A program made the position numbers and the translations under genes. From a virus: DNA of 64,000 nucleotides. Each line of letters starts with the position of its first letter. Position 1 is the stretch's first letter. The notes beneath the pieces were generated by a model. The model was given only the letters and a program-made list of their open reading frames with translations. It did not search any database and had not been told where the DNA came from. This document shows, piece after piece, positions 26,540 to 55,481 of this stretch. The stretch lies in the IMG/VR virus record IMGVR_UViG_3300029305_006219; one strand, written 5' to 3'.

Positions 26540-27901
26540 ATGCACAAATCAGTTGCTACGATAAACTCTCCTGAGTTTATCAATTTAAAACCACTTGATA
26601 TTAATCCTTTAATGTCTGCATGTGAAATTAAAGTTTTGTATGTTGGCGAAAATCGTAATAGGTCATATATAACCAAGGATGTTGCAACCGAAATGGCTAA
26701 GACATTACGAGGTGCGCCTATTGTAGGTTATTATAAAGAAGACATTGGAGACTTTAGAGACCACGGACAAGAAGTTATTATTGATAACGATGGGATTAAA
26801 TTTAATTGCAAAACTGTTCCTTATGGTTTTGTAGCTCCAGATGCAAAGGTATGGTTTAAAGAATTTGAAGATACTAATGACTTTGGAGAAACTATTTTGA
26901 GAGAATATCTTATGACTACAGGATATTTGTGGACTGGCCAATTTGAGGAATGTAAATCTGCTGTTGAGGGCGATGGCAAGCCGCACTCGATGGAATTAGA
27001 TGAAGCAACCGTTAAAGGACATTGGGAAACAAATACCAAAGGCATGGATTTCTTTATTATAAATGACGCAATTTTTTCAAAACTTTGCATTTTGGGCGAC
27101 GATGTTGAACCTTGTTTTGAAGGCTCAAGCATAAAAGCACCAAATGTTAGTGCGTCTTTTACGAAAGTAGATGATACTTTCAGACAAACATTATTTACTA
27201 TGATGCAGGATTTAAAGACTGCATTAGGAGGAGGTCAGCAAATGATAGACGCTATCGTCGATAATGCTGTAGTTGAAGAGCCTATTGTAGCGCCTGCGGC
27301 AGAACCTGCTGCGGAACCTATTATCGAGCCTGAAACTCCAGTAGAACCTTCTTTTGCTGCATCACAAGAGCCAGCTGTTGATACACCTGCAGTGGTTGAA
27401 GAGCCTGCGGCAGAACCTGTCGTAAATCCTGAAGACCCTGCTCCTGTAGATCCTGAACCGGCGCCCGCGCCTTCAATAGAAGAGCAGTTTACTGCACTTC
27501 AGCAGGAACTTGAGGAAGAAAGAACTGCACACTCTGCGCTTGCAGAACAGTATGCGCTACTTCAATCTCAGTATAATACCCTTTCAGCTGAGCACCTAGA
27601 ACTTGTTGAATTTAAAAGACAAAGTGACGATGCAAAGAAAGACGAAATGATTGGAAAATTCTATATGCTTAGCGATGAAGATAAGGCAGAGGTCTTATTT
27701 AATAAAGCTAATTACACTGTAGAAGAAATTGAAGAAAAACTTTCTGTAATTTGTTTCAGAAAAAAGGTCAATTTTGAATTAGAGGATAACTCTAAAAATA
27801 ATAATAAAGTAGAGCAACCACCTGTGACATTTAATATGTCCAACCCTGGTGCTTCAATGCCTGCTTGGTTACAAGCAGTTGAAAATGCAAAAAATAAATA
27901 A
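26540..27901 (+). CDS. scaffolding protein with a P/A/E-rich linker and a coiled coil (453 aa), possibly fused to a prohead protease domain; no in-frame TAG
   Basis: Intact track ORF. The central repeat region is AAEPAAEPIIEPETP..., followed by a C-terminal coiled coil. The position supports the call. Confidence 0.45.
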   Translation: MHKSVATINSPEFINLKPLDINPLMSACEIKVLYVGENRNRSYITKDVATEMAKTLRGAPIVGYYKEDIGDFRDHGQEVIIDNDGIKFNCKTVPYGFVAPDAKVWFKEFEDTNDFGETILREYLMTTGYLWTGQFEECKSAVEGDGKPHSMELDEATVKGHWETNTKGMDFFIINDAIFSKLCILGDDVEPCFEGSSIKAPNVSASFTKVDDTFRQTLFTMMQDLKTALGGGQQMIDAIVDNAVVEEPIVAPAAEPAAEPIIEPETPVEPSFAASQEPAVDTPAVVEEPAAEPVVNPEDPAPVDPEPAPAPSIEEQFTALQQELEEERTAHSALAEQYALLQSQYNTLSAEHLELVEFKRQSDDAKKDEMIGKFYMLSDEDKAEVLFNKANYTVEEIEEKLSVICFRKKVNFELEDNSKNNNKVEQPPVTFNMSNPGASMPAWLQAVENAKNK

Positions 27902-27921
27902 TTTTAAGGAGGACATATAAC

Positions 27922-28446
27922 ATGGCTACTATTAAGCGTGTTGGATTTGGTCAAGTCGAGCCTAATCATCTTTCCGCTCAAAGAAATGGTCAAGTTTACG
28001 CTTCTCTTCCTTGCAATAAGGATATTGCAATCCTTGAAAATGGTCAGTTTGTAAAATATGACTATGCAAAGAATGAAGTTAACTTTACTGGCGAAGGCGA
28101 GTGGATGCTCGTTATGAATGAAGTCAAGCTTTATGATGACTTCTGGAGAGAGTCTTACAAAGATTTTGCTCTTATTAAAGATAATTATAATAATGGTGTT
28201 ATGGCGCCTAGAGTTTTAAAGACTATGCCTGGCGACATTTACACAACAAACTGCCTTGAGGACGCTAATACCTCTGGCAAAGCTACTTTCACTGGCACAG
28301 AGGAAATTGAGGTTGGCACTGAGCTCAAGATCAATGCTAAAGGTTTCCTTTCTACTAATGGAACTAGCGATATTGTATTCCAAGTTGTAAAAGTTTACAC
28401 AATGCCTGATGGCCAATAGGGCGTCAAGGTTATGCGTATTAAATAA
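27922..28446 (+). CDS. head protein, possibly a decoration protein (165 aa, or 174 aa if the terminal TAG is read through)
   Basis: Strong RBS aaggagg. The ORF ends on the TAG at 28417-28419, and a TAA lies in frame 9 codons later. Confidence 0.45.
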
Positions 28447-28464
28447 TAAGGGAGGGATATAGTA

Positions 28465-29517
28465 ATGGCATTAGATAGAAATAGTTTATTTACATTAGGT
28501 CACCGCGTTGCTGACGCTAATCCTTCTGCTCCCGTTGCTTATTCTTTTGAGGATAAGAGTTATAGCTATGCAGATTTAAATAATGCTTTCCGTGCAGAGC
28601 TTAAGGATCTTATTGGTACATATGCTCTTTGGAGAGAGAACCATAATACAGTTTATACTCTTATGGAGGAAATTATCACTGATAAGCTTCCTGCTAAAGT
28701 AATGCAACAATATGGCGCATTTGCTGAAGTTAAGACATATCGTCAAGGCGAAAAGCCTGTATTCGTTCAGAGAATTACCGAGGCTTCCAAGAGACGTGCA
28801 AAGCAGTTTATTGCAATGCCTGCAGGTCTTGCTGGTCGTTATGAGGTCTTTAAGCTTGATGGACGTAGCTACGAAGTAAAGACTTCTGCAATGGGTGCAG
28901 CATGTCAGATCGCTATTGAGGAATTCCTTGATGGTAGAATTGATATGGCTACAGTTCTTGATATTGTTATGGAAGGTATGGATGATAAGATCTATGCTGA
29001 AATCGCAAATGTTCTTATCGCTGCTGTTGAGAATATTCAAGATGCTAACAAGGTTCTTGCTGATAGCTTCGTTGAGGCTGAAATGGACGCTCTTCTTGCA
29101 GTTGCGGACACTTATGGAAACGGTAGATCGACGATTTATTGTACATTTGAGTTTGCTTCTCAAATGCTTCCTGACAATGCTTGGGATCAAGGAAGAATGT
29201 CTGATAGTATGAAGGATGAGTACTGGAGAAATGGTCGTCTTGCAAACTACAAGAACCATCAAGTCATCGTTCTTCGTCAATCTTTTGTTGATGAAACAAA
29301 TACTGAAAAGGTTATCGATCCTTCATATGCTTGGATTATTCCTGGCGGCGCTGAGAAGCCAATCAAGATCGCTTTCGAAGGTGATACAATGATTAAAGAA
29401 GAAGATAATGAAGACTGGTCTAAGAGCATCCACTTCTATAAGAAGGTTGGCGTTGCGGCTATGATCAACAATGATATCTGTGTTTATAAGAACAGATCTC
29501 TTAAGAAAACCAGATAA
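28465..29517 (+). CDS. major capsid protein (350 aa, no in-frame TAG)
   Basis: Strong RBS aagggaggg. Size and position downstream of the scaffold gene fit a major capsid protein. A stem-loop follows at 29535-29569. Confidence 0.55.
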   Translation: MALDRNSLFTLGHRVADANPSAPVAYSFEDKSYSYADLNNAFRAELKDLIGTYALWRENHNTVYTLMEEIITDKLPAKVMQQYGAFAEVKTYRQGEKPVFVQRITEASKRRAKQFIAMPAGLAGRYEVFKLDGRSYEVKTSAMGAACQIAIEEFLDGRIDMATVLDIVMEGMDDKIYAEIANVLIAAVENIQDANKVLADSFVEAEMDALLAVADTYGNGRSTIYCTFEFASQMLPDNAWDQGRMSDSMKDEYWRNGRLANYKNHQVIVLRQSFVDETNTEKVIDPSYAWIIPGGAEKPIKIAFEGDTMIKEEDNEDWSKSIHFYKKVGVAAMINNDICVYKNRSLKKTR

Positions 29518-29603
29518 TTAAACTTGAACTTTCAGAGGGAAGAGAAGAAGGTGGGTCTTCCTTCCCTCTTAAATTCTAAATGGAGATAAAAGGAGATATA
29601 ATT

Positions 29604-30182
29604 ATGTTAAATAATACTGATAAAATCAGAGTAGAAAATCGCGCAAATGCGATTGTTTGTTACAGAGTACCAGAATCTAAGGTTATTAGACGTTTTGAGC
29701 CAAAAGAAACAAAAGAAATTCCTATGGGCGAATTGCGTCAAGCAGTACAAATCCCAGGTACTTATAATCTAATAGCTAGTGATTTGATTCTGCATAGTAA
29801 AGAAGCTGTTGAAGAACTAATTCCAGATGCAGAACCTGAGTATTTTTATGATAAAAATGATGTTCTTTTTCTTCTTGAAAAAGGCACTTTAGATCAACTT
29901 AAAGATGCATTAGATTTTGCGCCTGAGGGTGTTATTGATCTAATTAAAGAAGAGGCTGTTCTTACAGAACTTAACGACATGAAGAAAAGAACTGCAATTT
30001 TTGAAGCTACTAATTTTAATGTAACTAAAGCAATTGAGCTTAGACATGAAGCGCAAAAGGAAACTAAAGTTGAAACTAAGACCAGACGTGCGGCGCCAAT
30101 CGGTGAAGCAGAGACTGAAGAAACAACTCAAGCGCCTGTGCGCAGAACGGCTATGCCCAATAAATACACTATTGTAAAGTAA
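29604..30182 (+). CDS. hypothetical head-completion or connector-region protein (192 aa)
   Basis: RBS aaaggagatataattATG inside track ORF 29580..30182. Confidence 0.45.
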   Translation: MLNNTDKIRVENRANAIVCYRVPESKVIRRFEPKETKEIPMGELRQAVQIPGTYNLIASDLILHSKEAVEELIPDAEPEYFYDKNDVLFLLEKGTLDQLKDALDFAPEGVIDLIKEEAVLTELNDMKKRTAIFEATNFNVTKAIELRHEAQKETKVETKTRRAAPIGEAETEETTQAPVRRTAMPNKYTIVK

Positions 30183-30200
30183 TATTAAGGAGGTGTTCGT

Positions 30201-30677: not shown

Positions 30678-30679
30678 AT

Positions 30680-31971: not shown

Positions 31972-31988
31972 GATAAAAGGAGTACACT

Positions 31989-32579
31989 ATGAAGAGAGAT
32001 ACAATTGCTAAACCTTTAGAATCATCCTTTCTTTCATGTGAACGTGATACGGAAACTATATTAAAAAAATTATTTATTGATAGCCGCCAGCACAGTAAGA
32101 TTTTAAAACGATTACTTGTTGTTACAAATAACGATTGCTTAATTGATACGAGTGCAAAATATCAAGATGCTGAAAATATGAGTATTAAATAGCTTATTGA
32201 TCAAGGATATATTATTACGTCTCCAGTAATAAAGCAAAATGAGCATGAATAGTTAAAGGCGGCATTGGTGATTAGTTTTGACAATTTCTTGCCAAATGGA
32301 ACTAATCCAGAGTTTAGAGATTGCTCAGTAAATATTGATGTATTATGTCCTCTTGATTGTTGGGATTTAACTGATTATCAACAGCGACCTTTTAAAATTG
32401 CGGGTTATGTTGATGGTATTTTAAATAAGGCAAAATTATCTGGAATAGGAGAACTAAATTTCTTGGGCGGCAATGGGCCAATTATAGATGGAAACGTAGG
32501 GATGTTTTCTTTAATCTATCGTGCTGTGCATGGAACCGATGATATCCTTCCAGATGATGAATATCATGGCACTGAATAA
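31989..32579 (+). CDS. hypothetical protein (about 196 aa, 2 in-frame TAG)
   Basis: Track ORFs 31989 and 32265 are in the same frame and joined through TAG. TAA at 32577-32579. Confidence 0.45.
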
Positions 32580-33327
32580 TGAGTTGCTCTTACTCTCTGG
32601 AGCAGATATTCCTTTTGTCGAAGGCACGGTAACAATTCATTAGCCTACGATATATGAAATCTCTTTAATTGGAGAGGAAACATTATTTACTGGTTGTGAG
32701 TTGTTGAGGTTTTCAAAAGATATGTTAAATTCTGAGGACAAAATTAAATTATCTAATTATACTGATTTTAATATATTAATGTCAATAATGAATGATAAAA
32801 GTGGGTCAATGATATTTAATATATCTTGTGCTAAATAGGTGTTAGATTTAATCTTTCCCTTTTATACTGTTGAATTGGCGCCCAATGCGATACTGCTTGT
32901 TGACGCTAATGATAAATTTACACAATGCGGTGAAATTAATGATACTAATTTCCTTGTATTTAAAGATGTTCTGACTCAAATGTTTTGTTTGAAAAGGGCA
33001 TCGTCTACACAAGATTATAATGTGTAGGGTGAGTTAGCGAAGAAAATTGCAGACAAATTTAAACGCAGACAAAAATAGCTTGCCGAACTATCTGCGAAAC
33101 CAAACAAGATTGCAATTTTTAGTAGATATATTTCAATATTAACAGTTGGAGAGCATAAAGATATGAATTCTTTTATGAAATACACTGTTTATCAATTATT
33201 TGATGAGTTTTAGCGCTATGAACTTAAAACGGGATATGATATTTATTTCAAAGCTCGTACGGCTGGCGCTAAAGACATAAAAGAGCCTGAAGATTGGATG
33301 AAAGATCTCCATAATGAAGGCGCTTAA
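32566..33327 (+). CDS. hypothetical protein (about 253 aa, about 5 in-frame TAG)
   Basis: ATG at 32566 in frame 1. The gene contains track ORF 32839..33027 and ends on TAA at 33325-33327. Confidence 0.4.
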
Positions 33328-33362
33328 TAAAAAACTTAAAATATTTTAAGGAGGACAACTCT

Positions 33363-34286
33363 ATGCAATTTGGTATTAGAGAAATATGCGACGTCGTATT
33401 TAAGGCTAAAAATGCTGGAAACCTTGGTTCCTTTAAGTATGTTGCAGGACAGCCTGTTCTTTATATTGACAGCGCAAAAACTTCCACAATGGAAGGCGCA
33501 GCTACCACTGTTTATGCTCAGGGTGGTAAGGGTAATGCGCGTTTGATCGCTTGGGAAGGTGAGAGAACTCTTACTTTCACGGTTGAAGACGCACTTCTTT
33601 CTGAGCTTGGATTTGCTATTCTTTCTGGCGCTGGTCTTTTAAAGGCTGGTGAAAAAGTTGGAGAGAATACTCATGTTGCTCATGTTCATTCTACTTCTAG
33701 AACTGTTATTGGTACAGATGGAAAAATCGATCTTAGTGATGTTCTCGGTGAGAATGAAACTATCGATGAAGCTTCTCCTGTTTTTGTTATGCTAATGGAG
33801 CATGGTTCGCTTAAGAATATTCTTACTGGTTGCACTATTGCAGAAGATGGTAAATCAATTACTGGACCCATCCAAATGGACGGTGAGACGGCGGTTGAAG
33901 CAGATGTCTTTGTTGACTTCTATATTCAAAAGACAGCTGGTGTTACAGAAATGACTATTGATATGGAGAACTTTGCAGGTTATTATTATGTTGAAGCATC
34001 TACTCTCTTTAGACGTCAATCTGACGGTAGAGACTTACCTGCTGAGCTTATTTTCCCGAACGTTAAAATTCAATCTAACTTCACATTCTCAATGGCTTCT
34101 ACTGGTGATCCTTCTACATTTACATTCACAATGGATGCAATGCCTGGATACACTCGTTTTGATCGTTCTAAGAAAGTTCTTTGCGCAATGCAAGTTGTTG
34201 ACGAAGATACTAGCGATGACAAGGATCCTGATAAAGATTCTGCTGATTTGATAGCAGATGCAGAAAAACTTTATCCTATTGCTTAA
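33363..34286 (+). CDS. abundant tail protein (307 aa, no in-frame TAG); candidate tail tube protein
   Basis: Strong RBS taaggagg. Intact ORF followed by a strong terminator. The position upstream of the chaperone/tape-measure genes supports the call. Confidence 0.45.
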   Translation: MQFGIREICDVVFKAKNAGNLGSFKYVAGQPVLYIDSAKTSTMEGAATTVYAQGGKGNARLIAWEGERTLTFTVEDALLSELGFAILSGAGLLKAGEKVGENTHVAHVHSTSRTVIGTDGKIDLSDVLGENETIDEASPVFVMLMEHGSLKNILTGCTIAEDGKSITGPIQMDGETAVEADVFVDFYIQKTAGVTEMTIDMENFAGYYYVEASTLFRRQSDGRDLPAELIFPNVKIQSNFTFSMASTGDPSTFTFTMDAMPGYTRFDRSKKVLCAMQVVDEDTSDDKDPDKDSADLIADAEKLYPIA

Positions 34287-34310
34287 GCAGTAAGTAATTA
34301 AATAGTATTT

Positions 34311-34341
34311 AAAAGGCGGTGGGTGGTCCACCGCCTTTTTA
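34311..34341 (+). terminator. intrinsic terminator
   Basis: Hairpin aaggcggtgg-gtggt-ccaccgcctt followed by TTTTT. Confidence 0.6.
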
Positions 34342-34363
34342 TTATGAGTAAAAGGAGGTATGT

Positions 34364-42800: not shown

Positions 42801-45800
42801 TATTTTTAAAAAGAATTTTTCATCTCAGGAAGAAGCTTTAAAACAGCTAATTTTAGGACATAAAGATTTATCGCATTTAATTACTGATAATACTAATGAA
42901 CTTGAATATTTATAGAAAGCTTATGAGTCTTTAGGTAAAAGTGAATAGCTTGATAATTTAATAAAATAGTCATCTTTATTGTCAAAAAATATTAATTTAA
43001 CTCGGTAGTCATTAGGACGTGATGTTCAGCTTGATAAGACAATTATTGAAGCTAATTTACAAAATGTTGCTACAAATATGCAAGCAACTGGCATTAAAGT
43101 TGACGCAGCTTTGTTTAGAAAAATGTTTGCTGCAGATGGAACTTTTGATGCGAGTAGTTTAGTAGCGTTAGAAACATATTATGCTGAAAATGTATCAGAA
43201 ATTATAAATAATCCTATTTTAAAAGAGAGTTGGAATAATTTATTTGAAGCGATAGAAAAATCATAGTCTAATTATGAAGAAAACTATAATGCATGGCTTG
43301 ATAGTATTTATAATTCATTTGATAAAAATCTTGAAGTATTAGAAATAAAACTAGAATTAGCTTTTGATAAAACAGATTTTGAAAGAGCTTATAATGATTA
43401 TATTAAAACTATTTATGATGATGATTATGTAAAAATAGGAGAAGTTTTATTAGGAGATATTAATACTTATGCAGATGATATTAACAATATTAACGAAGCA
43501 ATTAAGGGCCTCAATGAGGGATTAATAATTTCAGAGGAGACTTTTGAGAAATTTTCATAGCTACCTGCTGAAATTACTTAGGCTACTTATGATGCTATGG
43601 ATGACAGTGCCAAAAAGTTTTATGATGAAGATACCTTAAAACTTCGTACAGACATTTATACGTTAAAAGGTGCTGAAGAGAAAAAATAGGAACTTTTAAA
43701 CCAGTTAATGGAAAAAGGTCTGTCCCTTGAAGAGGCGCGCGCCGCAGTTTATGACCATATTAATTCGTACTTAGATGATGTATCTAGTGCATATGAAACT
43801 TATATTGGATACCTTGAAGATATTTCAGAGATATTGGAACAATAGGTTTCTTTAAATGAATTACTTTATGGAGATAAAGCATTTAAATATTTAGATGGTT
43901 ATTATAAATCTGCTTTAAGCAATCAAACGAAAATAACAGAAAAGCGTAGAGAAGATTATGAGACTTAGCTTAAAGAATATGAATTAGTAAAAGATAGCGA
44001 AGAATTGAGCCCAGAATAGGCTGAAAGATATTTAACTGCTCGCTCTAATTATTTAAGTGAATTGGTTAATAAAGCTACTCTTATTACTGAACAATTTGCA
44101 AATGATGTCAAAGTAACCATTGCAAACTTTGAAGAAGAGGTATTTGGTAATACTGTTGCATCTCTTAAAGAAGAGTGGGAATGGTTCAAAGATATGAGTG
44201 ATGATTATCTGGATTAGATTGATGCTGGCTATGGTATTGATGCTATTGAAATAGCTTTTGAAAAGGCATTATAGTCTACTAAATTATCTGTTAATGCGCA
44301 ACAAAAACTAAATGATTTAAGAAATCTTGAATTAAAGGCTTTGCGCAAAAAGGATAAATTAACTCAATATGATTTAGATAGGGCGCAAAAGCGTTTAGAC
44401 TTATTACAAGCAGAAATTGCTCTTCAAGAAGCTCAAGAAAACAAAACTCAAATGCGCCTAATGCGCGGAGCAGATGGTACTTATAGTTATCAATATGTTG
44501 CTGATTAGAGTAAAATTTTAGAATAGCAAGAAGCTTTAAATAAGGCGCAATAGGAACTAGTTAACTTAGACGAGGAAGAGTTGAAAAAGACTTTGGACAA
44601 TGTAGCTTCTCTTTGGGAAGATTGGCAATAGACTGTCTCTGAAAAGATTACTAGTGGCGAATGGGATAAGGAAGAAGATGCTCAAGAGTATACAGATAAA
44701 TAGTTAGCGCGATTTAAAGATAGTTAGCTTCGAACAAAAGAGTTACTCGATAAGCTTGGCTGGAGTGCAGAAGATGCATAGATTAATTTAGGTTTAGATT
44801 ATGAGTTAAGTGAAATTTTTACCTGGTTATAGTCAGATTGGGCCGAAAGTATGACCACTGCAGAAAGTACTTTTGCAGATAAGTCGCAAGAGATTATAGC
44901 TGAAATTTTTGCATCTAAAAAAGAAGCCGATGAACAACTAAATAATATAAATATGGCTTTTAAAGGTATTTCGGATAATTTATTATCTGACACAGATGGT
45001 ATTTTATCAAAATAGGAATAGGTTATTGAAAAATTAGAGGCAATACGTAAGGGTATATTAGGAGACGGAGAAGAAAAAACTGAAAGTCTACTATCTAGTA
45101 TAAAAGGGTTAGAAGGTGCAATTTCAGAATACACTGGTACAATCGCTCAGACGGTTCAAGGGGCTATTAATAATGGATTAGGACTTTAGGGCGGTGGATC
45201 TCCTGATACCAATCTTAGTCTTAGTAAAAGTGATATTGAAGATGCTCAATATTTTCTTAATAATAAAGGATTTACAGTTACAGATACAGTATCGACTTCT
45301 GGTGGTGCAAAACCTGGAGACACTAGCTTAACAATAACTGGAGAATTGGACTCAGGTACCGAAGAAGCGATTAAAGAGTATTAGCTCCGAATGGGATTAG
45401 CTCCTACTGGTAAATTAGACGCTCAAACTTGGGAGGCAATGAAGAAAGATCCAGAATGGGAAAAATCCAGTGGAATTAATGATGCAGGTTCCGATCATCT
45501 TGATTTTATTGACAATGAATAGAATATAAAAGATTTGGCGCGTACTTTAACTGAGATGGGTCATGGTTTGTTTTACGAGGATTTAACAACATATACGGGC
45601 GCTCTTAGAGACATGGTGGCAAAGATTCAAGAAAGAGCTGGTTTACCTGTCACTGGTTTAATGGATAAAAATACCTAGTAGTTAATTGAAAGAATAGGCT
45701 CTTATTAGACTGCTACTAGATTAAAATAGTATAATGAAATGTTTAATAAGAATTATTCATCATGGGCAGCTCTCAATCAAAGTGGAGATTTATCTAAAAA

Positions 45801-46257
45801 CATAACGCAAAACCAAAACTCAAATGATAGAAGTGGAGTATATTTAGATAATGCTGAAGAGGTTCTCAATTTTACAGAACTTTATAATAATTATAGACGA
45901 TTATCTAAGTTTGATACTGGTGGTTACACAGGAGACTGGGGCGCCGAGGGCCGACTTGCGATGCTTCATGAGAAAGAAATAGTTCTCAATAAACAAGACT
46001 CTTCGAATTTCCTTGATGCACTTGATATTCTCCGCACTTTAAATCTTTCGATGGTTGATTAGATGGCGAATTACAATTTTGGTTTTACGCATTCTCAAGC
46101 GGCATGGGAAGCGCTTAATAGTTCGACTATTGAATAGATTGTTAATATTAATGCGGAGTTCCCGAATGCTACTGACAAGGACGAAATTAAAGAAGCTTTT
46201 GAAGACTTGGTTAATTTAGCATTGTAGTATACAGGTAAGAATTCTCGAGTTAAATAA
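36829..46257 (+). CDS. tail tape measure protein (about 3142 aa, many tens of in-frame TAG codons)
   Basis: Track ORFs 37354, 37750, 38017, 40423, 41170, 43078 and 45739 are all in frame 1. Hand translation of the intervening stretches meets only TAG, never TAA or TGA, until the TAA at 46255-46257. Gly/Ala-rich glycine-zipper TM-like segments (GWKAGGAGAKAGAAKGGAAGIGQAIGA..) are present. The TP901-type region EELSTGMSKVASAASNMGVNID and the C-terminal FDTGGYTGDWG block are recognisable. A hairpin terminator follows at 46261-46295. Confidence 0.6.
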
Positions 46258-46363: not shown

Positions 46364-49300
46364 ATGAGTAATAAATATGCTGATAATTTATTTCAAGCTA
46401 TTGAAAAAATAGCCAATACTAATTCAACTTGGAGAGTTGTTACTGGTGAAATCGTAAATTGCACTGCATATATTGATGGACAATACGTTTATAAAGTGCG
46501 GTATGAAGGAAATATAAGAACCGTTAATACTCCTTTGAGTTTGGCAGAAGGCGATTTAGTTAGACTAGGAGTAGATAATACTAATACAATAAGCGGAGAG
46601 CAATGTTTTATTTTAGAGAAAATTATTTCTAATACATTGACAGAAACTCAAAAAATATCAAAATCATATACTAGAAAAGGAACTGTGCTTTCTATTGATG
46701 AAGAATTTGATTATTCCCCGCAAGAATTAGTATTATATGATATAGAGGTGCCTGATGATTCGATTATTTCTAAAGAAGAAATAAATAATTTAAATGTTAG
46801 TTTAAACGAAGAAGATTTTGACCATATAGTTTTAAGTTTAAATTATACTTCGGCAATAGCTTCTACGAAAAATAGAGCATTGGTGGTTACTATAAAAGAT
46901 GACTCAAAGCCCGCGAAAGAGATTCTAATAACTCTATCATTTTTATAGACTTCTTTAATTCAAAAAGAAGTTGCTTAGGTTAGTGAATTTATAAAAACAG
47001 AAGGTAGAATCTATACTATTACCAAAGTTGTGTTAAAGGGTCTTGAGGAAGGAGACAAAGTATCTAATATCAACATTTATTGCGCCAAAAAGAAAGAAAC
47101 TTCTGATTTGTTTGAGGTTATTATCAAGGCGCGTGATGGGTTAACTTTTGTCTAGAATGATGTTGATTCAATCTAGGTCAGCGCCTATTTATAGTTTAAA
47201 GATGCAGGTTTTAGCTAGGCTTTTGATAATAGTAATGTAACGTATGCACTTTATGCATATAATGGTGCAGACACTTGGATTCAAAAAATAGCTCCAGGTA
47301 CAGAAACTACATTTAGTATTCAACGCGATTGGATTTTTAATCAAACAAGAAAATTTAAAGTTGTTATTAGATACAATGGAGAGGATTTCGAAAAAGAGTT
47401 TACTGTTCGTAATTTAGCGGCGTCAAAGATTGACGTTATTGTTAGCTCTTCTCAATAGAATAAGGATTATTATCTTGATGATAATGTTATATTAATAGGT
47501 AGTCCTGGAGAGGGTTATACTTACTCTTGGTATAAAGCCGATACATTAGGTGGAGAATGGAGCGAATAGTTTGGTAAGACGGATGCTTCACTTATAGTTC
47601 AGAATGCAGATATTGTGGATCAAGATGAGTATTTATTTGTCGTTTATAAGAATGTTGAATATGTGGGTGAAGCTTCGATATCAGTCTTTAACAAGTAGGC
47701 GCTTGAAAAAAGTATGATTTCTTTTAGTATTTAGTATTTATCTTCAAAAAAAGAGCCTAAAGAAGATACTGACGGTTGGCAAAATGAAATGCCAGAAAAA
47801 GAAAATGATAAATATATTTGGCAAAAAATAGAGCGAATTTATATTAACGGATTAAAGTTGGTTTCTATTATTAATATAAGTGGCGCAGACGGAACACCTG
47901 GCGCGCCGGCGATTTCAATACAATCTAATGTTGAGACTTTAACTTTTATTAAGTCAAGCATTGGCAATATAAGTCCTGCCTCAATAGGCTCTATTATAAT
48001 TACAGTCAATAAAGGCGGGGTTGCAGATACAGTCACAAATTATTTTTGTAAATGGTATAAAGGTACTGATTCTAATATAATAAATTCTAATTTATCTTCT
48101 AATAAGAATATTGAAAATGGTATATTTACTTTGGATATTGAAAATATGGCTATTGGATAGGTTGTTTATAAAGTTGAGGTTTATCAAGGTGAAACCACCG
48201 CTACAGATCCTCCATTGATAGGAACTAAAACTATTACAATAATTTGTAATGCAGCTCAAGTTAGTTATACTTTAGTTCCTGATAAGAAATAGATTACTAT
48301 TACTTCTGAAATGCTAATTGATTCGTCTAAACTTCCAAAAGTGCGTTTAGACGTTTATAAAAATGAAGCCGGAATATCAACTCCTATTTTAATACAAGAT
48401 ATCAATAACTCAAAGATAGCGCCTAGTATCGAAATAAATGGTAGTAGAACAATAACATCATTAGTCGAGGGTGAAACAGACTAGACTAAAATACGTTATT
48501 TTCAATACTCTATTACAGAAAATGATTTGAAAACTGCCGAAAATATAATCTTTACTTTAAAAGTAGCTGACCAATTAAATACAACTGCTAAAGAATGGGA
48601 TACCGAAACTTTAAGTTTTATTATTACAGTTGATAAAATAGAGCCATAGTACGCAGGAACTTTAACTTCAGCTTAGCCGGATATAGAATCAGATGCTATT
48701 GAGAACAGTGAGACAGAAAAGAGTTTAGTTCCAGGTGGTTGGTCTACATCTCTTGATAAAGTCGTTCAACTTTCAGGTATTTTATATATTTGGTATCGAG
48801 AAAAAATATATTTTAGTAATGGAACATATGATTTTACCGATCCAAGAGTTGATAGTTCTGAAATGGCTTTAAGAGACTGGGCAGTAAGTGAAAATAAAAC
48901 TTTAATTGATGGTTCAAAAATTTATACTGGATCCATTAGCGCTGATAAAATAAATGTTGATAATCTTAATGCGCTTGCCGCCGAAATTGGCGGTTGGAGT
49001 ATAAATGACTATGGCATTTACAAAGACGATGGAGATAGTAAATCAGCAATGGTTTCTACCTCTGGAGAATAGCGTTTTGCTTCTGGAGGTACTATAGCTT
49101 GGGAAAATATTATAAGTGGAATAGAGTGGGATAGCGATAGGGAAAATGTTATTATTACAACAGACGATACTCATAAATTTAAATTTTCTTTTAGATTTAA
49201 AGGTAGACCATATTCAATGCCTTATGAAGGTAAAATTGGAGAATAGGTGTTTTCTTATACTAATTTTCAAACTTGGTTATCTAACGTGTTTAATCCATAG

Positions 49301-51328
49301 TTAACACTATATTATAAATAGATTAATATTAATAATGGTGAACAAGAAGCTTCTTGGTAGTTATTAAATAAAAATGTATATAGCTTTGAATGGAAAGAGC
49401 CAAAACAAAATAAAATTGAATGCACTGGTTAGATAAATAATACAGCTGGTTTAAGCGGCGGTCTGATTTTAAAAGTAGTAGTCATATATAAGAATTATGA
49501 TTTCTCTGGAATGACAAAGCCTACGTATGAAGTAACAGCAGATGGTAGTATGTCAGCAAAGTTAGGCTATATTGGTGGTTGGAAAATTGATGAAAATAGT
49601 ATTAGTGTTGAGAATGAGAGTTTCTCCCTTATATCAGACGATAGTAGTATGGGAATATCACTTTTAGGTGGAGGAAACTCACCGCACCGTATAGTTGTAG
49701 GCGGAAGCGGTGGAGGTGGCAGCGGTGATGGTGATAATAGCGGTGGCGATGATAATGGTGGTAGTGGAGATTCTACTACTATAACAGTTTTAGTTTCGAA
49801 AGAGAAAAGCATAACTCTGTCAGCTTAGAAGACTGAAGCAAAACAATTTTTACATGAAGGTGTAGATAGTACGTTTATATTAAACTCAATAGAAGGAGAA
49901 GGGGGTTCTTATATTACTTCTATTGAATATAATCCTGATACTAAGTAGATTACTGTCTATTATAGTAATCCAACCTCTTCAGATGCTTAGATAACTATTG
50001 GATATACTGTTCATACTTATTAGACTATACCAAATACAACTACGAGTAGTGCTAATTTAACTGCAAGTAGTAGTACTAGCTCAAGCAACTATACTTTTTA
50101 GTTATTAGCAGACGGTAGCCTGTATGCGAGCGCCGTAGATATTAAAGGTACTATTACTACAGAAAATGGATATATTGGTGGTTGGAATATCGGTCCAAAT
50201 GGATTATACAGTCCCAAATTAGCATCTGGCTCAATATTTAGTTTAAATAGTACTGGCATTGGTAGTTATGATTATCCTTTATTATAGTTACTTAGCTCTT
50301 TTAATATTCCTTCAGATATTAAAGATAGCATAAAATTAGAAGATTTGGGAGTACTTATAGAAAAGGAAGAATATATGTTAAAAGCATCAGCAAGATTTTC
50401 GTTCAATGGTCTTTCGGTAGACGAGTTTAATGCGCAGTATGGTTACAATTTTACAGTTAGTATACGTAATGAAGGAGATTTTTAGTATATAACATTTACA
50501 TATGGAGCGGAACTAAATGTTAAAACAGTAAAAATTGACATATTTGTTGATAATGTTTTTTCTACTTATTCTTTTGCCGTACTTCCTCGACATTTATATT
50601 ATTCTACTGGAAATTTATCTGGTGACATCTACTATGGTGACTGGATTATATTCGATGGCTTATATTTTCAAAACGGTTCTGACAATGGCGCGACTCCCTT
50701 TGGTACAAGTTTAAAATATATTGAAAGTGGTTATCCAACCATATTTTCTACAGCTACTGCTTTAAAAGAAGATCCTAACAGTGGAAATATAATAATATAG
50801 CCAGGGGAATATTTTACAGTTATTCTTAATCAAACAGTTTATTCTTCATGGTCATGGACGCTTATTAAAAGGAAAGCTGATGAAAAGACAGTTTTTTTAC
50901 TTACAGGTTCAAATGGCGATCCTCTTGCCTTTTTAGACTATAATGGTAATTTATTTGCTCAAACTGTAAATTCAACAGGTAGTGACTAGAGAATAAAAAA
51001 TTCGATTCAAGCTATTCCTTTTTAGTACGAAGAAGCTTATGATAATTTTGAACCTGTTATTTATAAATATAATGATGGAACCTCAGACAGATATCATACT
51101 GGTTTTATTGCACAACCAATGGCACAGGCGATCGAAGATGCAGGCTTAACATTGCAAGATTTTGCTGCAGTATGCAAGCCAGCCTATGACGGTGGTACTT
51201 GGGGTATTCGTTATGGAGAAATTGTTTCGCTGAATACATGGCAAATTCAAAAAGCTAAAAAACGTATCACGGCACTTGAACAAGAAGTTTAGAATTTAAA
51301 AGATATAATTACTTCATTGGTTAAATAA
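46364..51328 (+). CDS. giant tail fibre / host-specificity protein (about 1654 aa, many in-frame TAG) with a C-terminal peptidase S74 intramolecular-chaperone domain
   Basis: Track ORFs 46364, 47789, 48863 and 49511 are all in frame 2 and joined through TAG. A Gly-rich linker GGSGGGGSGDGDNSGG is present. The C-terminus SD(TAG)RIKNSIQAIPF...HTGFIAQPMAQAIEDAG...YGEIVSLNTWQIQKAKKRITALEQEV matches the auto-cleaving chaperone domain of phage tailspikes and fibres. TAA at 51326-51328. Confidence 0.55.
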
Positions 51329-51362
51329 CCAATGAAGTAATTATCTGAAAGGAGAATTAATA

Positions 51363-51650: not shown

Positions 51651-51765
51651 TTAAAATTCTTATCAAAATGATTTAATCGAATTATTTTAGTTTTTATATA
51701 TTTATAGACAAAGAGAGAAATAATTTATTTCTCTCTTTGAATTTTAAGATAGGAGGTTATTGAAT

Positions 51766-52098: not shown

Positions 52099-52099
52099 G

Positions 52100-52987
52100 A
52101 TGGCGATAGATATTATTGCAAGAGGTCTTGCGACTTCGCTTATTGGTTCAGATGGACGAATTTCTTCAGATAAACTACCTGTGATGGGCGCAGTCCCAGA
52201 AGGCGCGACATTTTATCCAGTTGGCGCCATTACGGACCCTAAGCAGCTTGAAGGCAAAACATCTGAAGAGATTCTTTTAATGATGCTTTACGGCGTAGTA
52301 AGTCCCACCCTTACGAATCCTAGTTTAGCAGTTGAAGTTACCTCAGGATTAACAGCTGTTGCTGGAAAACCCGTTACTATTAATGGAACTCTAGTTTTTG
52401 ATCGAGGCGCAATATCGCCTGCCTATGGTACCTCAGGGTATCGCGCGGGCGCCCCATTATCATATACAATAAATGATATTGAAGTCCCTTCTGCTACTTT
52501 CACCATTGATTTAATACCTATTGCAGGTGAAAATATAATAAACTGCACTGTTTATTATGCAGAAGGAGAACAGCCATTAAACAGTATTGGATAGCCTTTT
52601 GATTTACCTTTATCTGCAGGTTATTTAACGACAAGCTTTACTATTGTCGGTACCCATCAAATATATACTGCTGATGGTAAAGAGTTAGATTTTACTTGGT
52701 TTGAAGATGAAAATGGCGCCGGATACGAAGTTGAATTATTAATAGAAACAGGAAATACAAAGCAATCTTTTGCAGTTAATGCTAATTTAAAAGTTATTGG
52801 TATTAAACAATTTGAGACAATGACTCAAACATGGCAATGGATTGGAGGTAGTCCTGAAGCATCATTAGCTACTTTTGATACATCTTTAATTGAAGGAGAC
52901 TCCTTAGATTAGTCTGATGACTATATGGTATATACTCATAATGGTTCTAAGACTGGTAATAGAGAATTGCGTATTTACGTAGAGTGA
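52100..52987 (+). CDS. hypothetical tail protein (about 295 aa, 2 in-frame TAG)
   Basis: Track ORF 52100..52594 continues in frame past the TAG to the TGA at 52985-52987. Confidence 0.45.
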
Positions 52988-53005
52988 AAGGGGTATAGAT
53001 AAGAT

Positions 53006-53872
53006 ATGGCAAGAGAAAAAGGTACATTTCTAGTCTCAGCTAATTATGAGCCGCAAAAAGCTGCCCCATTCGATGCGCGGGCTTTGGTTGAAACTAAAGC
53101 AGATTTATTTGCGGCAAATACATGGGCTATAAATAACGAATTGTGGATTTATAAAGGTATGATAGTTGCAGTTGCAACTGACATTGAGCCTAAAAACAAT
53201 GGTATTTATATGCTCTTAGACGATGTAAATTATTTTAATGAAGATGCTTGGCTTAAAATGTCTGACTCAACCATGGACGGCGAGTCTGCTGGTGAGGTTC
53301 TAGGTCAATTAAATTCTTATAAAGAGACTAACGATGCGGTAGTTGCTGCTATCAATGGTAAGATTGGAACTCCTGGTGAGGGACAAAATGATGAAGGCGA
53401 TACGCTTTATAGCTTAATTGCAGAAGCGCAAACTCAGGCTAATAAAGGTGTTGCCGATGCGAAGACAGCGAATGACGCAATTGCAGCGTTAACCAATGGC
53501 GCAATTGCTACTAATACATCTGACATTAGCGCAATTAAAGGTAGACTTACTACTCTTGAGACAGAAGTTCTTCCTATTATCAATAAGCATAGTGATATTC
53601 TTGCAGGCATTGGCGGCGATGGTGAAAAAGCAACAGTTAAGGCATATGTTGATGATGCTATTGCAGCAATTCCTACTTATGAACTTCCTGCAGCTACTGC
53701 TGAAACTCTTGGTGGAGTTAAGTCTGCGGCTGATGTTGACGGGAAAGCAGTTACAAATGCAGTTTATGTTGATGCAACTAGCAATGTTGGTAGTGTAAAA
53801 ACTATAAGCACAGATATATTAGTCCAAGGGGTCGAAGAGCTTATTCTTAATGGCGGTAGCGCCAAGGCTTAA
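53006..53872 (+). CDS. fibre-like structural protein (288 aa, no TAG)
   Basis: Intact ORF with an Ala/Thr-rich repetitive C-terminus. A GC hairpin at 53903-53926 carries the same 23-mer as 17775-17797, in inverted orientation. Confidence 0.45.
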   Translation: MAREKGTFLVSANYEPQKAAPFDARALVETKADLFAANTWAINNELWIYKGMIVAVATDIEPKNNGIYMLLDDVNYFNEDAWLKMSDSTMDGESAGEVLGQLNSYKETNDAVVAAINGKIGTPGEGQNDEGDTLYSLIAEAQTQANKGVADAKTANDAIAALTNGAIATNTSDISAIKGRLTTLETEVLPIINKHSDILAGIGGDGEKATVKAYVDDAIAAIPTYELPAATAETLGGVKSAADVDGKAVTNAVYVDATSNVGSVKTISTDILVQGVEELILNGGSAKA

Positions 53873-53966
53873 TTATAAGCCACTTAATATATAAAATATA
53901 AGACGCCTTAGGGTGACCTTTGGCGCCGATTAAATAAATTCATAATTTAAAGGAGATTTTAAAATT

Positions 53967-55481
53967 ATGGCGAAACAAATTAATACTCGTATCATGCTTA
54001 AGCATGATAGCTTAACTAATTGGAATGAATCCTCTATAGTTCTTAAGCCAGGTGAAGTTGGTATAGCATATGTAGATGTTACAACCACTGATGCCAAGGG
54101 CAATATTATTCATGTTCCTACTGCTCTTTTAAAAGTAGGTGAAAATGTAGAGAATTCTACCAAAACTTTTAAAGAGCTTCCCTTTATGTCTGCTATTGCA
54201 GCTGATGTTTATGCATGGGCAAAGAAGAGCGGAATTGAAGTAGTAGACGAAGGAGAGGGAGAGGTTCTTTCTGATGTAACTTGGGAGAATGACAAACTCG
54301 TTCTTCATAGATTAGATGTTGTAACTCCAGCAGAACTTACAACGGCTCTTGGAAGTTACTATACAAAAGATGAAATTGATGGCAAGATTGAGGAAATCAG
54401 TCAGTCTATTTCGGACCTTGACGTATCTGCTCTTGAAGGTAGAGTTGATGCAGTAGAGACTGCTGTCGAAACAACACTCCCTGGTCAAATCAGCGCAGTA
54501 GATGCAAAATTTGCAAGCTATACAACAACAGCTGCGCAACAAGCAATTGATGCGGAACAGGATCGTAGACTTGGCGTTATCGAGGGTGATTATGTAAAAT
54601 CTGCTGATATTGCCAACTTTGAAACAAAAGAGAATGTTCAGAAGGTTGCAAACGATCTTGCAGGATATCAAACTTCTAATGACGCAGCTCTTGCAGCAGT
54701 AAAAGCAACAGCTGATGCGGCTGCAGTTAAGACTGAGGTTGAGACAGCTCTTGCTGATAGATATACTAAAACCGAGGCAGATGCTGCTTTTGATGCAAAA
54801 GGCAGTGCTGATCAAGCATTAACCGATGCTAAGGACTATACTGATACCCAAATTCAAGCTATCATGGGTGGAGAAGTCGATGAAGCTTATAACTCTTTCT
54901 TAGAGATTCAGAATTTCTTAAAGGCTGATGAAACTGCTACTGCTCAGCTTGTTGAAAAGGTAAATGCGAATGAGGCGGCCGCAGCTGCAGCTCAGGCAAA
55001 GGCTGATGCTGCACTTCCTACAGCTACCGCGGAGGCAGATTACTTAAAGAAAACAGATGCATCTACCATTTACGAGCCTATTGGTGCACAAGCTGCTGCA
55101 GAGGCTACTGCTAAAGGTTATACCGATACAGAGATTGCAAAGCTTAGCAATGTTTATGATGCTAAGGGTGCTGCTGCTGATGCACAGGCGGCTGCTATCG
55201 CAGATGCTGCGGGCAAGTATGAGACAAAAGGTACTGCTCAAGGTATTGTTGACGCTTTAAACCTTGCTCAAACTTATGAGCCTATTGGCGCAGAAGGTAG
55301 AGCTATTGCTGCGGCAAAGACTGAAACTGAGAACCAGATTGCAGCTCTTGGTATTGAAGATTATGCAAAGAGCGCAGATGTGGCTACTACATATCGCGCA
55401 AAGGCAGATAAGATTACTTCTGATGATCTCTCTGACGAAGTTTTCATCTTTAATTGCGGAACAGCATCTACTGTTATATAA
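53967..55481 (+). CDS. coiled-coil, alanine-rich tail fibre protein (504 aa, no TAG)
   Basis: Strong RBS taaaggag. Long Ala/Glu/Thr-rich repeats are typical of fibre shafts. A strong terminator follows. Confidence 0.5.
   Translation: MAKQINTRIMLKHDSLTNWNESSIVLKPGEVGIAYVDVTTTDAKGNIIHVPTALLKVGENVENSTKTFKELPFMSAIAADVYAWAKKSGIEVVDEGEGEVLSDVTWENDKLVLHRLDVVTPAELTTALGSYYTKDEIDGKIEEISQSISDLDVSALEGRVDAVETAVETTLPGQISAVDAKFASYTTTAAQQAIDAEQDRRLGVIEGDYVKSADIANFETKENVQKVANDLAGYQTSNDAALAAVKATADAAAVKTEVETALADRYTKTEADAAFDAKGSADQALTDAKDYTDTQIQAIMGGEVDEAYNSFLEIQNFLKADETATAQLVEKVNANEAAAAAAQAKADAALPTATAEADYLKKTDASTIYEPIGAQAAAEATAKGYTDTEIAKLSNVYDAKGAAADAQAAAIADAAGKYETKGTAQGIVDALNLAQTYEPIGAEGRAIAAAKTETENQIAALGIEDYAKSADVATTYRAKADKITSDDLSDEVFIFNCGTASTVI

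What the first reader, a model, noticed from the sequence alone, without database searches (positions are those of the whole stretch)
26540..55481. The most abundant structural proteins avoid TAG entirely
Scaffold (453 aa), major capsid (350 aa), tail tube candidate (307 aa), the 288-aa fibre protein and the 504-aa alanine-rich fibre have zero in-frame TAG and strong AGGAGG sites. Low-copy proteins (terL, portal, tape measure, fibre, chaperones) are TAG-rich. This suggests selection against relying on suppression for high-flux proteins. Alternatively, capsid precursors may be makeable before suppressor levels rise.
Basis: seen in the sequence. Interest (0 to 1): 0.5.

Follow-up and report, generated by a model that had tools for sequence, protein, structure and literature searches.

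The report
Abundant virion proteins avoid recoded TAG
In this gut phage that reads the stop codon TAG as glutamine, the capsid, tail-tube and a few other probably high-copy virion genes almost never use TAG, while neighbouring low-copy genes use it as freely as CAA; the pattern is conserved in relatives and is best explained by selection against a slightly costly codon in heavily translated genes.

Summary
The window holds the late operon of a TAG-to-Gln recoded siphophage that is distantly related to phAss-1 and has an SPbeta-like structural module.

- **In the window:** the five named genes have no TAG anywhere in their stop-to-stop frames. Heterogeneity of TAG among Gln codons across 33 late genes has p=1.7e-13.
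- **In relatives:** pooled over 10 recoded genomes, TAG/all Gln codons is 0/117 in the major capsid protein, 4/139 in the scaffold-like gene, 4/81 in g7, 1/56 in g9 and 2/63 in the tail tube. It is 341/777 in the tape measure.
- **In TAG-rich genes:** TAG is about as common as CAA and both far exceed CAG (576:614:141). That is what neutral AT-biased mutation predicts.
- **In depleted genes:** CAA/CAG switching at conserved Gln sites is common (64/187) but TAG is rare (5/187). The TTG/CTG control is unchanged.
- **Link to codon bias:** TAG share tracks independent codon-bias markers, and is predicted by CAG preference in a standard-code relative.

Selection against TAG in high-flux proteins is therefore the best explanation. 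Ribosome-binding-site strength does not discriminate. The abundance of the two fibres and of the 'scaffold' is inferred, not shown. No suppressor tRNA was found in the window. The effect is plausible from codon-usage theory and has been noted anecdotally before.

The parts
26540..27901 (+). g6, 453 aa, scaffold-like protein (YonD_N family). TAG-free here; 4/139 Gln codons are TAG over 8 genomes.
   Evidence: No TAG in the frame. Orthologues carry Pfam YonD_N. Weak PHROG scaffold match at residues 311-369, E=0.007. Confident long helix at 313-373; the N-terminal domain is not modelled. Pooled counts.
27922..28446 (+). g7, 174 aa, unknown head-module protein between the scaffold-like gene and the capsid gene. 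One TAG at codon 166 of 174; 4/81 pooled. Codon usage resembles the capsid gene.
28465..29517 (+). g8, 350 aa, HK97-fold major capsid protein (YonB family). 0 TAG in 117 Gln codons over 10 genomes.
   Evidence: AlphaFold model, pLDDT 74; the top Foldseek PDB matches are all HK97-fold capsids or encapsulins. Weak NCBIfam HK97-fold capsid match. Counts.
29604..30182 (+). g9, 192 aa, unknown. TAG-free; 1/56 pooled.
33363..34286 (+). g15, 307 aa, tail tube protein (YomU_Tube family). TAG-free; 2/63 pooled. Flanked by the TAG-richest genes, g14 (65/138 pooled) and g16. A terminator-like hairpin lies at 34318-34336.
   Evidence: Orthologues at 59% identity carry Pfam YomU_Tube. phrog_2729 virion structural protein. 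Counts. Hairpin.
53006..53872 (+). g23, 288 aa, fibre-like protein. TAG-free, but it has only 6 Gln codons.
   Evidence: Sub-threshold Pfam phi29 head-fibre match. Larger genes at the same position in relatives have 0/21 and 1/22 TAG.
53967..55481 (+). g24, 504 aa, alanine-rich fibre. 0/19 TAG here and 0/13 in the 78%-identical orthologue. Followed by a strong terminator at 55500-55526.
   Evidence: Codon-bias markers.
22697..24445 (+). terL, comparator. 8 TAG; 44:99:61 TAG:CAA:CAG pooled.
   Evidence: PHROG terminase matches. Counts.
24927..26522 (+). Portal, comparator. 8 TAG; 54:156:51 pooled.
   Evidence: phrog_2739 portal. Counts.
32566..33327 (+). g14 (YomV family), the gene with the highest TAG share in the relatives. 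5/10 here; 65:57:16 pooled.
36829..46257 (+). Tape measure protein, 3142 aa. 82 TAG : 89 CAA : 13 CAG here; 341:352:84 pooled.
   Evidence: Orthologues carry PhageMin_Tail. Counts.
46364..51328 (+). g19, 1654-aa distal tail protein. 32 TAG : 33 CAA : 3 CAG.
57505..59715 (+). g27, 736 aa. 20 TAG of 31 Gln codons.
60710..62687 (+). It is split into g29 (60710-61159) and g31 (62367-62687) by a group I intron that carries g30. 0/46 TAG pooled.

Best explanation
TAG is decoded as glutamine in this phage, presumably by a phage suppressor tRNA(CUA) of the kind its relative phAss-1 encodes. In most late genes TAG is an effectively neutral synonymous codon. AT-biased mutation along the chain CAA<->CAG<->TAG has brought it to the same frequency as CAA.

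In a small set of genes TAG is removed by purifying selection. These are the major capsid protein, the tail tube, the scaffold-like protein, g7 and g9 of the head module, the g23/g24 fibres and the intron-split g29/g31 gene. Their products are needed in hundreds of copies per virion, or are otherwise heavily translated.

The likely cost is a small per-codon loss, either from competition with host release factor 1 or from slower decoding by a less abundant tRNA. That cost scales with translation flux. It may be made worse for lattice-forming proteins by truncated subunits that poison assembly.

Shown here: the codon pattern, its conservation, the mutational opportunity and the link to codon bias. 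Inferred: the copy numbers, the nature of the cost, and the suppressor tRNA in this particular genome.
For: 1. **Conserved depletion.** TAG:CAA:CAG pooled over the recoded genomes that have each orthologue (up to 10) is 0:59:58 for the capsid protein, 4:92:43 for g6, 4:42:35 for g7, 1:38:17 for g9 and 2:42:19 for the tube. It is 341:352:84 for the tape measure, 65:57:16 for g14 and 44:99:61 for terL.
2. **Neutral equilibrium elsewhere.** In the TAG-rich class TAG/CAG is 4.09 and CAA/CAG is 4.35, with AAA/AAG at 3.4.
3. **Specificity.** The analogous first-position C<->T synonymous pair TTG/CTG is 2.3 in depleted genes and 2.8 in rich genes. TAG/CAG falls 50-fold, from 4.09 to 0.08.
4. **Opportunity.** At conserved Gln sites of depleted genes, 64/187 comparisons are CAA/CAG switches and only 5 involve TAG. 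In rich genes 122/269 are TAG/CAR switches.
5. **Link to translational selection.** Pooled TAG share correlates with ATA/Ile (rho 0.77), with C-ending two-fold codons (rho -0.71), and with AAG and GAG (rho about -0.7). The CAG preference of each gene in the standard-code relative L007 predicts TAG avoidance in the recoded relatives (rho -0.72, p=0.004).
6. **Gene-specific, not regional.** The tube gene lies between the two TAG-richest neighbours.
7. **Quantitative, not absolute.** Single TAGs occur in the g6, g7 and tube genes of some lineages. g7's TAG sits 9 codons from the stop.
8. **Identities.** HK97 fold for g8. YomU_Tube label for g15 orthologues.
9. **Suppression must be efficient.** A tape measure with 82 TAGs has to be made in full, so the per-codon cost is small. 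Established knowledge: tape-measure length sets tail length, so a 3142-aa tape measure implies a very long tail and hundreds of tube subunits.
Against: - No expression or proteomic data exist for this phage. Abundance is inferred from homology and from the general stoichiometry of siphophages.
- g6 and g9 are TAG-depleted without marked general codon bias, so flux is not demonstrated for them. The N-terminal domain of g6 could not be modelled.
- The role and copy number of the fibres g23 and g24 are unknown. g24 homologues also occur in standard-code phages.
- The genomes compared are related (three of the ten are close to one another), so pooled P values overstate independence.
- No tRNA(CUA) was found in the window or in about 10 kb upstream of it.
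- In-frame TAGs show no significant +4 context bias (p=0.075) and no positional bias, although some would be expected under release-factor competition.
- In crAss-like phages a tail-tube family is reported to prefer TAG (cited in the preprint read), so the rule is not universal.
Confidence: 0.65

Rival explanations
1. Temporal gating. TAG-free late genes can be translated before the suppressor tRNA accumulates, so shell and tube subunits are stockpiled early while TAG-bearing genes wait. This extends the published model of recoding as a translational timer.
For: - Early minus-strand ORFs of the window are nearly TAG-free: 2 TAG against 55 CAA and 21 CAG (my tally). This fits the timer model for early genes.
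- Perfect sigma-70 consensus promoters lie before g1 (20168-20196) and before the portal gene (24872-24900), so host polymerase might transcribe the operon early.
- g6 to g9 form a contiguous, nearly TAG-free block.
Against: - The portal (8 TAG) and the sigma-like g1 (2 TAG) need suppression. It is established for tailed phages that proheads nucleate on the portal, so capsid protein made first would be wasted.
- Orthologues of g6 carry a TAG at codon 134 or 167, and a tube orthologue at codon 190 of 307. Without suppression these would be lethal.
- The tube and fibre genes are isolated between TAG-rich genes.
- The depletion grades with codon bias, which a timer does not predict.
Confidence: 0.12
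2. Recent horizontal acquisition. The TAG-free genes, above all the fibre genes g23 and g24, were imported from standard-code phages and have not yet accumulated TAG.
For: - g24 homologues at 37-55% identity lie in standard-code phages with GC about 0.40.
- The fibre region is mosaic: in relatives L019 and L020 the matching genes differ in length and domains.
- The TAG-free genes have higher GC (0.385-0.42) than the tail genes (0.29-0.33).
Against: - The capsid, g6 and tube genes diverge from relatives in step with terL and portal. For example, identity to the standard-code relative is 56/52/57% against 61/52%, so there is no sign of recent exchange.
- TAG/CAR turnover is fast at this level of divergence, yet g24 orthologues at 78% identity are both TAG-free.
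- The extra GC of g24 lies in codon positions 1 and 2 (Ala/Gly-rich). Its GC3 of 0.24 matches the tail genes.
- The TTG/CTG control shows the same mutational pressure in both classes.
Confidence: 0.08
3. Adaptive enrichment. The signal is selection for TAG in low-copy genes, throttling their yield to set virion stoichiometry or lysis timing. It is not selection against TAG in abundant genes.
For: - Published work reports gene families significantly biased towards recoded stops.
- Some genes here exceed CAA: g14 has 65 TAG to 57 CAA, g27 has 20 TAG to 11 CAA, and g10 in L008 has 8 TAG of 9 Gln codons.
Against: - In the rich class as a whole TAG:CAA is 576:614. That is the neutral expectation of the mutation chain, not an excess.
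- TAG positions turn over rapidly and are spread evenly along the genes.
- The intermediate class (terL, portal) has fewer TAGs than neutral although its products are low-copy.
Confidence: 0.1
4. Chance or amino-acid composition. The five genes simply have few glutamines.
For: Gln-type codons make up 2.1-3.8% of these genes, against 4.6% overall. g23 alone is not significant.
Against: Tests conditioned on Gln codons remain extreme, and the pattern recurs in relatives.
Confidence: 0.01

Closest known systems
Stop-codon (TAG-to-Gln, code 15) recoding in gut phages with gene-specific bias (Ivanova 2014; Yutin 2021, PMC7886860; Borges et al., preprint 10.1101/2021.08.26.457843; Peters 2022, PMC9523058)
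   Same: - In-frame TAG aligns with Gln.
- TAG is concentrated in late structural genes, and early genes are nearly TAG-free.
- The genome is AT-rich.
- Close standard-code relatives exist.
- The authors already propose that selection enriches or depletes recoded stops in particular gene families.
   Different: Those studies stress enrichment in lysis genes and some structural genes, read as a timer. They do not mention capsid genes at all (0 occurrences of 'capsid'). Here the salient feature is depletion inside the late operon, in the highest-copy virion genes, with TAG at neutral equilibrium elsewhere. In crAss-like phages a tail-tube family is reported as TAG-preferring, which is the opposite of this tube gene.
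phAss-1 / proposed Phassvirus group (Babkin et al. 2023, PMC10607447)
   Same: - A siphophage of about 135 kb from the human gut.
- TAG recoded to Gln.
- A tape measure of about 3150 aa.
- Homologous capsid (46% identity), portal, terL and tube N-terminus.
- The phAss-1 capsid is also TAG-free, with 15 of 15 Gln codons CAG. The paper lists only terL and the tape measure as recoded among the marker proteins.
   Different: The window's phage is a different lineage with different synteny. Its closest relatives are uncultivated contigs at 76-85% capsid identity. The paper does not analyse or discuss TAG avoidance. phAss-1 has three tRNA(CUA) genes, whereas none was seen in this window.
Codon-usage bias by translational selection in highly expressed genes, including lower use of reassigned stop codons in highly expressed ciliate genes (own knowledge, not checked here)
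   Same: A synonymous codon served by a weaker decoding route is purged in proportion to expression. The effect co-varies with other non-optimal codons such as ATA and the AAA/GAA-type endings.
   Different: The disfavoured codon is also a stop signal for the host release factor, so the cost includes truncated proteins. g6 and g9 avoid TAG without strong general codon bias.
Remark in a 2026 preprint on an amber-reassigned Crassvirales phage (10.64898/2026.08.21.746148)
   Same: The authors report, as a surprise, that the capsid gene shows no alternative codon use.
   Different: It is a single genome in an unrelated order. There is no statistics, comparison or codon-bias analysis, and the authors explain it by diversifying selection.

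Membership tests
Code-15 (TAG-to-Gln) recoded phage | Conserved genes are interrupted by in-frame TAG, and coding density rises when TAG is read as sense | tested here: met
   Total ORF length rises from 47.4 to 77.3 kb and the longest ORF from 512 to 3151 aa. terL, portal and the tape measure are restored.
Code-15 (TAG-to-Gln) recoded phage | TAG positions align with glutamine in homologues that use the standard code | tested here: met
   25 of about 61 window TAGs align with Gln in L007; the next most frequent are Glu, Asn and Lys. The profile matches that of CAA/CAG Gln.
Code-15 (TAG-to-Gln) recoded phage | A phage-encoded suppressor tRNA with anticodon CUA | tested here: not met
   None was found in the 64-kb window, in about 10 kb upstream or in 3 kb downstream. 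About 60 kb of the 135-kb source contig could not be read. The relative phAss-1 has three. The literature notes recoded phages that lack a detectable suppressor.
Code-15 (TAG-to-Gln) recoded phage | Early genes are compatible with the standard code | tested here: met
   Minus-strand ORFs between 8.6 and 18.7 kb hold 2 TAG against 55 CAA and 21 CAG (tally).
SPbeta-like / phAss-1-like structural module | A syntenic set of YonG, YonD, YonB, YomW, YomV, YomU and YomO families followed by a giant tape measure | tested here: met
   Precomputed Pfam labels on orthologues that are 50-90% identical to the window genes, in the same order. The local Pfam copy lacks these newer families.
HK97-fold major capsid protein (g8) | HK97 fold | tested here: met
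   Model pLDDT 74. The top 50 Foldseek PDB matches are phage capsids or encapsulins with probability 1.0, but the TM-scores are only 0.3-0.5.
Tail tube protein (g15) | Membership of a tube family, or the tube fold | tested here: inconclusive
   The YomU_Tube label is on orthologues, not scored on g15 itself. PHROG says virion structural protein. There is no PDB sequence match, and the fold was not predicted.
Scaffolding protein (g6) | A helical protein encoded between portal and capsid genes, present in proheads and absent from virions | tested here: inconclusive
   The position fits. A long confident helix spans 313-373, and there is a weak PHROG scaffold match (E=0.007). The 230-aa N-terminal domain was not modelled and its role is unknown. 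Presence in proheads cannot be tested with these tools.
Translational-selection codon bias | Codon avoidance scales with measured expression | not testable with these tools
   Only proxies were available: protein identity and other codon-bias markers.
Translational-selection codon bias | The bias is conserved in orthologues despite synonymous turnover, and is not explained by mutational pressure | tested here: met
Recoding as a lysis or late-gene timer (Borges model) | Late and lysis genes all depend on suppression | tested here: not met
   Eleven of 33 late-operon genes, including the capsid, tube and fibre genes, have no TAG. The lysis genes were not identified.

The most novel reading that the evidence does not exclude
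The TAG:CAA ratio of each gene acts as a built-in gauge of selection on translation in recoded phages. It is 1 in genes where suppression costs nothing that selection can see, and it falls to 0 in the capsid gene.

If so, suppressor decoding carries a real, TAG-specific fitness cost, from release-factor competition or from truncated subunits that poison assembly. That cost is separable from ordinary codon bias: g6 and g9 avoid TAG without general bias. The ratio could then be used to rank protein flux and to bound suppression efficiency in uncultivated phages from sequence alone.
Probability: 0.4. Interest if true: 0.55.

Novelty: new variant of a known kind. Interest (0 to 1): 0.4.

Why it matters
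Recoded phages are common in gut viromes. The prevailing view treats in-frame stops as a switch that holds back all late genes. This locus points to a finer picture.
- The recoded codon is neutral in most late genes.
- It is actively purged from the proteins made in the largest amounts.

That implies suppression is efficient but not free. It also means the most abundant virion proteins do not depend on the code change.

Practical consequences:
- Capsid genes of such phages will look 'standard code' to gene callers and marker-based surveys. A survey that tests for recoding on the capsid gene can therefore miss it.
- The TAG share of each gene may serve as a sequence-only proxy for expression.

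Tried and rejected
- **Ribosome-binding-site strength as a discriminator:** no difference.
- **TAG context and position:** the +4 base does not differ significantly from that after CAA/CAG (p=0.075), and TAGs are spread evenly along the genes.
- **Anchoring relatives with the 1654-aa tail protein:** nothing found. With the g24 fibre in IMG/VR, only standard-code phages were found. The fibre region of relatives came instead from homologue look-ups.
- **Local Pfam, NCBIfam and PDB sequence searches** gave almost nothing for the focal proteins.
- **Structure prediction of g6** failed for the N-terminal 300 residues (pLDDT below 50), so no fold search was run on it.
- **Search for a suppressor tRNA:** none in the window or the reachable flanks. 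A scan with phAss-1 NrdD, which lies next to that phage's suppressors, returned only close phAss-1 relatives and none from this clade.
- **g10 as a TAG-avoiding gene:** rejected, because its orthologues carry 22/77 TAG.

Full report
**What the window is.** The sequence is 35% GC. Reading TAG as a sense codon raises the summed length of ORFs of at least 100 aa from 47.4 to 77.3 kb. The longest ORF grows from 512 to 3151 aa. Reading TGA or TAA through gives no such long frames. From 20.2 kb to the end, the + strand carries one late operon of 33 genes (my numbering g1-g33).
- g1 is sigma-factor-like, g3 is terL, g4 is an HNH endonuclease and g5 is the portal.
- g18 is a 3142-aa tape measure.

The capsid protein is 46% identical to that of phage phAss-1, a TAG-to-Gln recoded gut siphophage of about 135 kb. 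Orthologues in closer uncultivated relatives carry the newer Pfam families of the Bacillus SPbeta structural module: YonG, YonD, YonB, YomW, YomV, YomU_Tube and YomO. Window TAGs align mainly with Gln in a standard-code relative (25 of about 61), with the same replacement profile as CAA/CAG glutamines. TAG therefore encodes Gln here.

**The observation.** No change of start site can alter that. The late operon holds 204 TAG, 350 CAA and 77 CAG in 13,803 codons.
- Conditional on Gln codons, heterogeneity among genes is extreme (G=128, 32 df, p=1.7e-13).
- 95 Gln codons lie in TAG-free genes, against 9.4 expected. No permutation in 100,000 exceeded 55.
- The five focal genes hold 60 Gln codons with no TAG (P about 1e-10 or less).

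The claim about strong ribosome-binding sites is true but not informative. Nearly every gene in the operon has an AGGAG-type site, and TAG-rich genes have some of the best.

**Identity of the TAG-free genes.**
- g8 folds as an HK97-type capsid protein. The model has pLDDT 74, and all top PDB matches are phage capsids or encapsulins.
- g15 orthologues are labelled YomU_Tube.
- g6 lies between the portal and capsid genes. It has a proline/alanine-rich linker and a confident 60-residue helix with a weak scaffold match. Its conserved N-terminal domain could not be modelled. 'Scaffold' is plausible, not shown.
- g23 and g24 look like fibres: a sub-threshold phi29 head-fibre match and alanine-rich repeats. 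Their place in the virion and their copy number are unknown.

**Conservation.** I collected the head-to-tape-measure region from nine further recoded genomes and one standard-code relative. I also collected the distal tail region from two recoded relatives. Pooled TAG:CAA:CAG counts are as follows.

| Gene | TAG:CAA:CAG |
|---|---|
| capsid g8 | 0:59:58 |
| g6 | 4:92:43 |
| g7 | 4:42:35 |
| g9 | 1:38:17 |
| tube g15 | 2:42:19 |
| terL | 44:99:61 |
| portal | 54:156:51 |
| g14 | 65:57:16 |
| tape measure | 341:352:84 |

The g24 orthologue at 78% identity has 0/13 TAG. The larger fibre genes at the same position in relatives have 0/21, 1/22 and 1/18. Depletion is therefore conserved but not absolute. 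One clade has a TAG at codon 134 of g6 and another lineage at codon 167. One tube gene has a TAG at codon 190. Three of the ten genomes are close to one another, so the pooled counts are not fully independent.

**Neutral baseline and specificity.**
- In the TAG-rich genes the counts are 576:614:141. TAG/CAG (4.1) equals CAA/CAG (4.4) and resembles AAA/AAG (3.4). Both CAG-to-CAA and CAG-to-TAG are G:C-to-A:T transitions, so this is what AT-biased mutation predicts if TAG is selectively equivalent to CAA.
- In the depleted genes TAG/CAG is 0.08. The analogous first-position synonymous pair TTG/CTG is 2.3, against 2.8 in the rich genes.
- At conserved Gln sites of depleted genes, 64 of 187 pairwise comparisons are CAA/CAG switches and only 5 involve TAG. 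In rich genes 122 of 269 are TAG/CAR switches.

The precursor codon and the time were therefore available. TAG is specifically removed.

**Link to expression.**
- Across 26 orthologue groups, TAG share correlates with ATA among Ile codons (rho 0.77). It correlates negatively with C-ending two-fold codons (-0.71), AAG (-0.69) and GAG (-0.71).
- In the standard-code relative L007, each gene's CAG preference predicts TAG avoidance in the recoded relatives (rho -0.72, p=0.004). Its capsid gene has 15 CAG to 4 CAA, and its tape measure 6 CAG to 61 CAA.
- The phAss-1 capsid uses CAG for all 15 glutamines, while its tape measure has 110 TAG, 114 CAA and 25 CAG.
- By established siphophage stoichiometry, capsid, scaffold and tube subunits are needed in hundreds of copies. 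A 3142-aa tape measure implies a very long tail. Portal, completion proteins, tape measure and distal tail proteins are needed in 3-12 copies.
- The ranking of TAG share follows this order. g6 and g9 avoid TAG without marked general codon bias, which suggests a TAG-specific cost on top of ordinary bias.

**Rivals.**
- *Early translation before the suppressor appears.* This is attractive because early genes are nearly TAG-free, and perfect sigma-70 promoters precede g1 and the portal gene. However, the portal and g1 need suppression, mid-gene TAGs occur in g6 and tube orthologues, and the depletion grades with codon bias.
- *Recent import from standard-code phages.* This is conceivable only for the fibres. 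Even there, GC3 matches the resident tail genes, and the 78%-identical orthologues both remain TAG-free.
- *Positive selection for TAG in low-copy genes.* This is not needed, because TAG is about as common as CAA overall.
- *Chance or composition.* This is excluded.

**What is missing.** No tRNA(CUA) lies in the window or the flanks I could reach. In-frame TAGs show no significant context bias and no positional bias. No expression data exist.

**Relation to the literature.**
- Gene-specific bias of recoded stops is known, and selection 'enriching or depleting' them has been proposed. The emphasis there is on enrichment in lysis genes and a timer function.
- The phAss-1 paper lists only terL and the tape measure as recoded among the marker proteins, without comment.
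- A 2026 preprint notes with surprise that a crAss-like capsid gene lacks TAG.
- Metaproteomics found capsid proteins among code-15-dependent proteins in other crAss-like phages. A crAss tail-tube family is said to prefer TAG. The rule is therefore lineage-dependent.

The quantitative picture here is a modest extension of a known phenomenon: a neutral equilibrium elsewhere, and specific, conserved, graded depletion in high-copy virion genes. It is not a new kind of system.

Noticed in passing
window 10689-10760 (- strand): The only tRNA in the window (Rfam 44.6 bits) has an 8-nt anticodon loop, TTTCGTTT. ARAGORN reports a four-base anticodon, 'tcgt'. It is not a TAG suppressor. It could be a quadruplet or frameshift-type tRNA, or a degenerate Arg/Thr tRNA.
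   Followed up: partly
window 60710-62687: A 288-aa gene (phrog_16490, unknown function, TAG-free, strongly codon-biased) is split into g29 and g31 by an insertion of about 1.2 kb. The insertion holds a group I intron match (RF00028, 45.8 bits, just under the gathering score; 62027-62223) and a GIY-YIG-like ORF (g30, 61336-62136, 2 TAG). The gene is intact in the relative L020 at 16806-17672.
   Followed up: partly
window 20168-20196, 24872-24900 and 32785-32756 (- strand): Three perfect TTGACA-17/18-TATAAT promoters, where about 0.04 are expected by chance (my estimate). Two lie just upstream of the sigma-like g1 and of the portal gene. The third is antisense, inside g14.
   Followed up: no
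L021 13900-19950 (about 3-9 kb upstream of the window start on the source contig): A tRNA array of 13-15 genes. Three of them (Thr-tgt, Asn-gtt, Gln-ttg) appear to carry inserts of 78-171 nt in the anticodon loop. The 78-nt insert itself contains a T-arm-like hairpin. No CUA suppressor is among them.
   Followed up: partly
window 24519-24875; L016 3165-5951, L026 5160-7895, L028 5107-7893: Homing endonucleases cluster around terL. In the window, a free-standing HNH gene (2 TAG) lies between terL and the portal gene. In three relatives terL is split into two ORFs by an HNH or GIY-YIG ORF, which suggests an intron.
   Followed up: no
window 28417-28419 (g7 codon 166 of 174): The single TAG of the otherwise TAG-poor, capsid-like-biased g7 lies 9 codons before the stop. 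The relative L027 also has a single TAG at the matching distance from its stop (codon 164 of 172). Failure to suppress it would remove only the last 8 residues.
   Followed up: partly
window 3636-7762 (+ strand): A second small cluster of TAG-containing ORFs lies outside the late operon, amid TAG-free minus-strand early genes. For example, 7055-7762 has 6 TAGs. Function unknown.
   Followed up: no
window 34318-34336 and 55500-55526: Terminator-like hairpins lie directly after the TAG-free tube gene and after the TAG-free fibre gene g24. The second has a 12-bp stem and a T-run. This fits these genes being the 3' ends of abundant transcripts.
   Followed up: no
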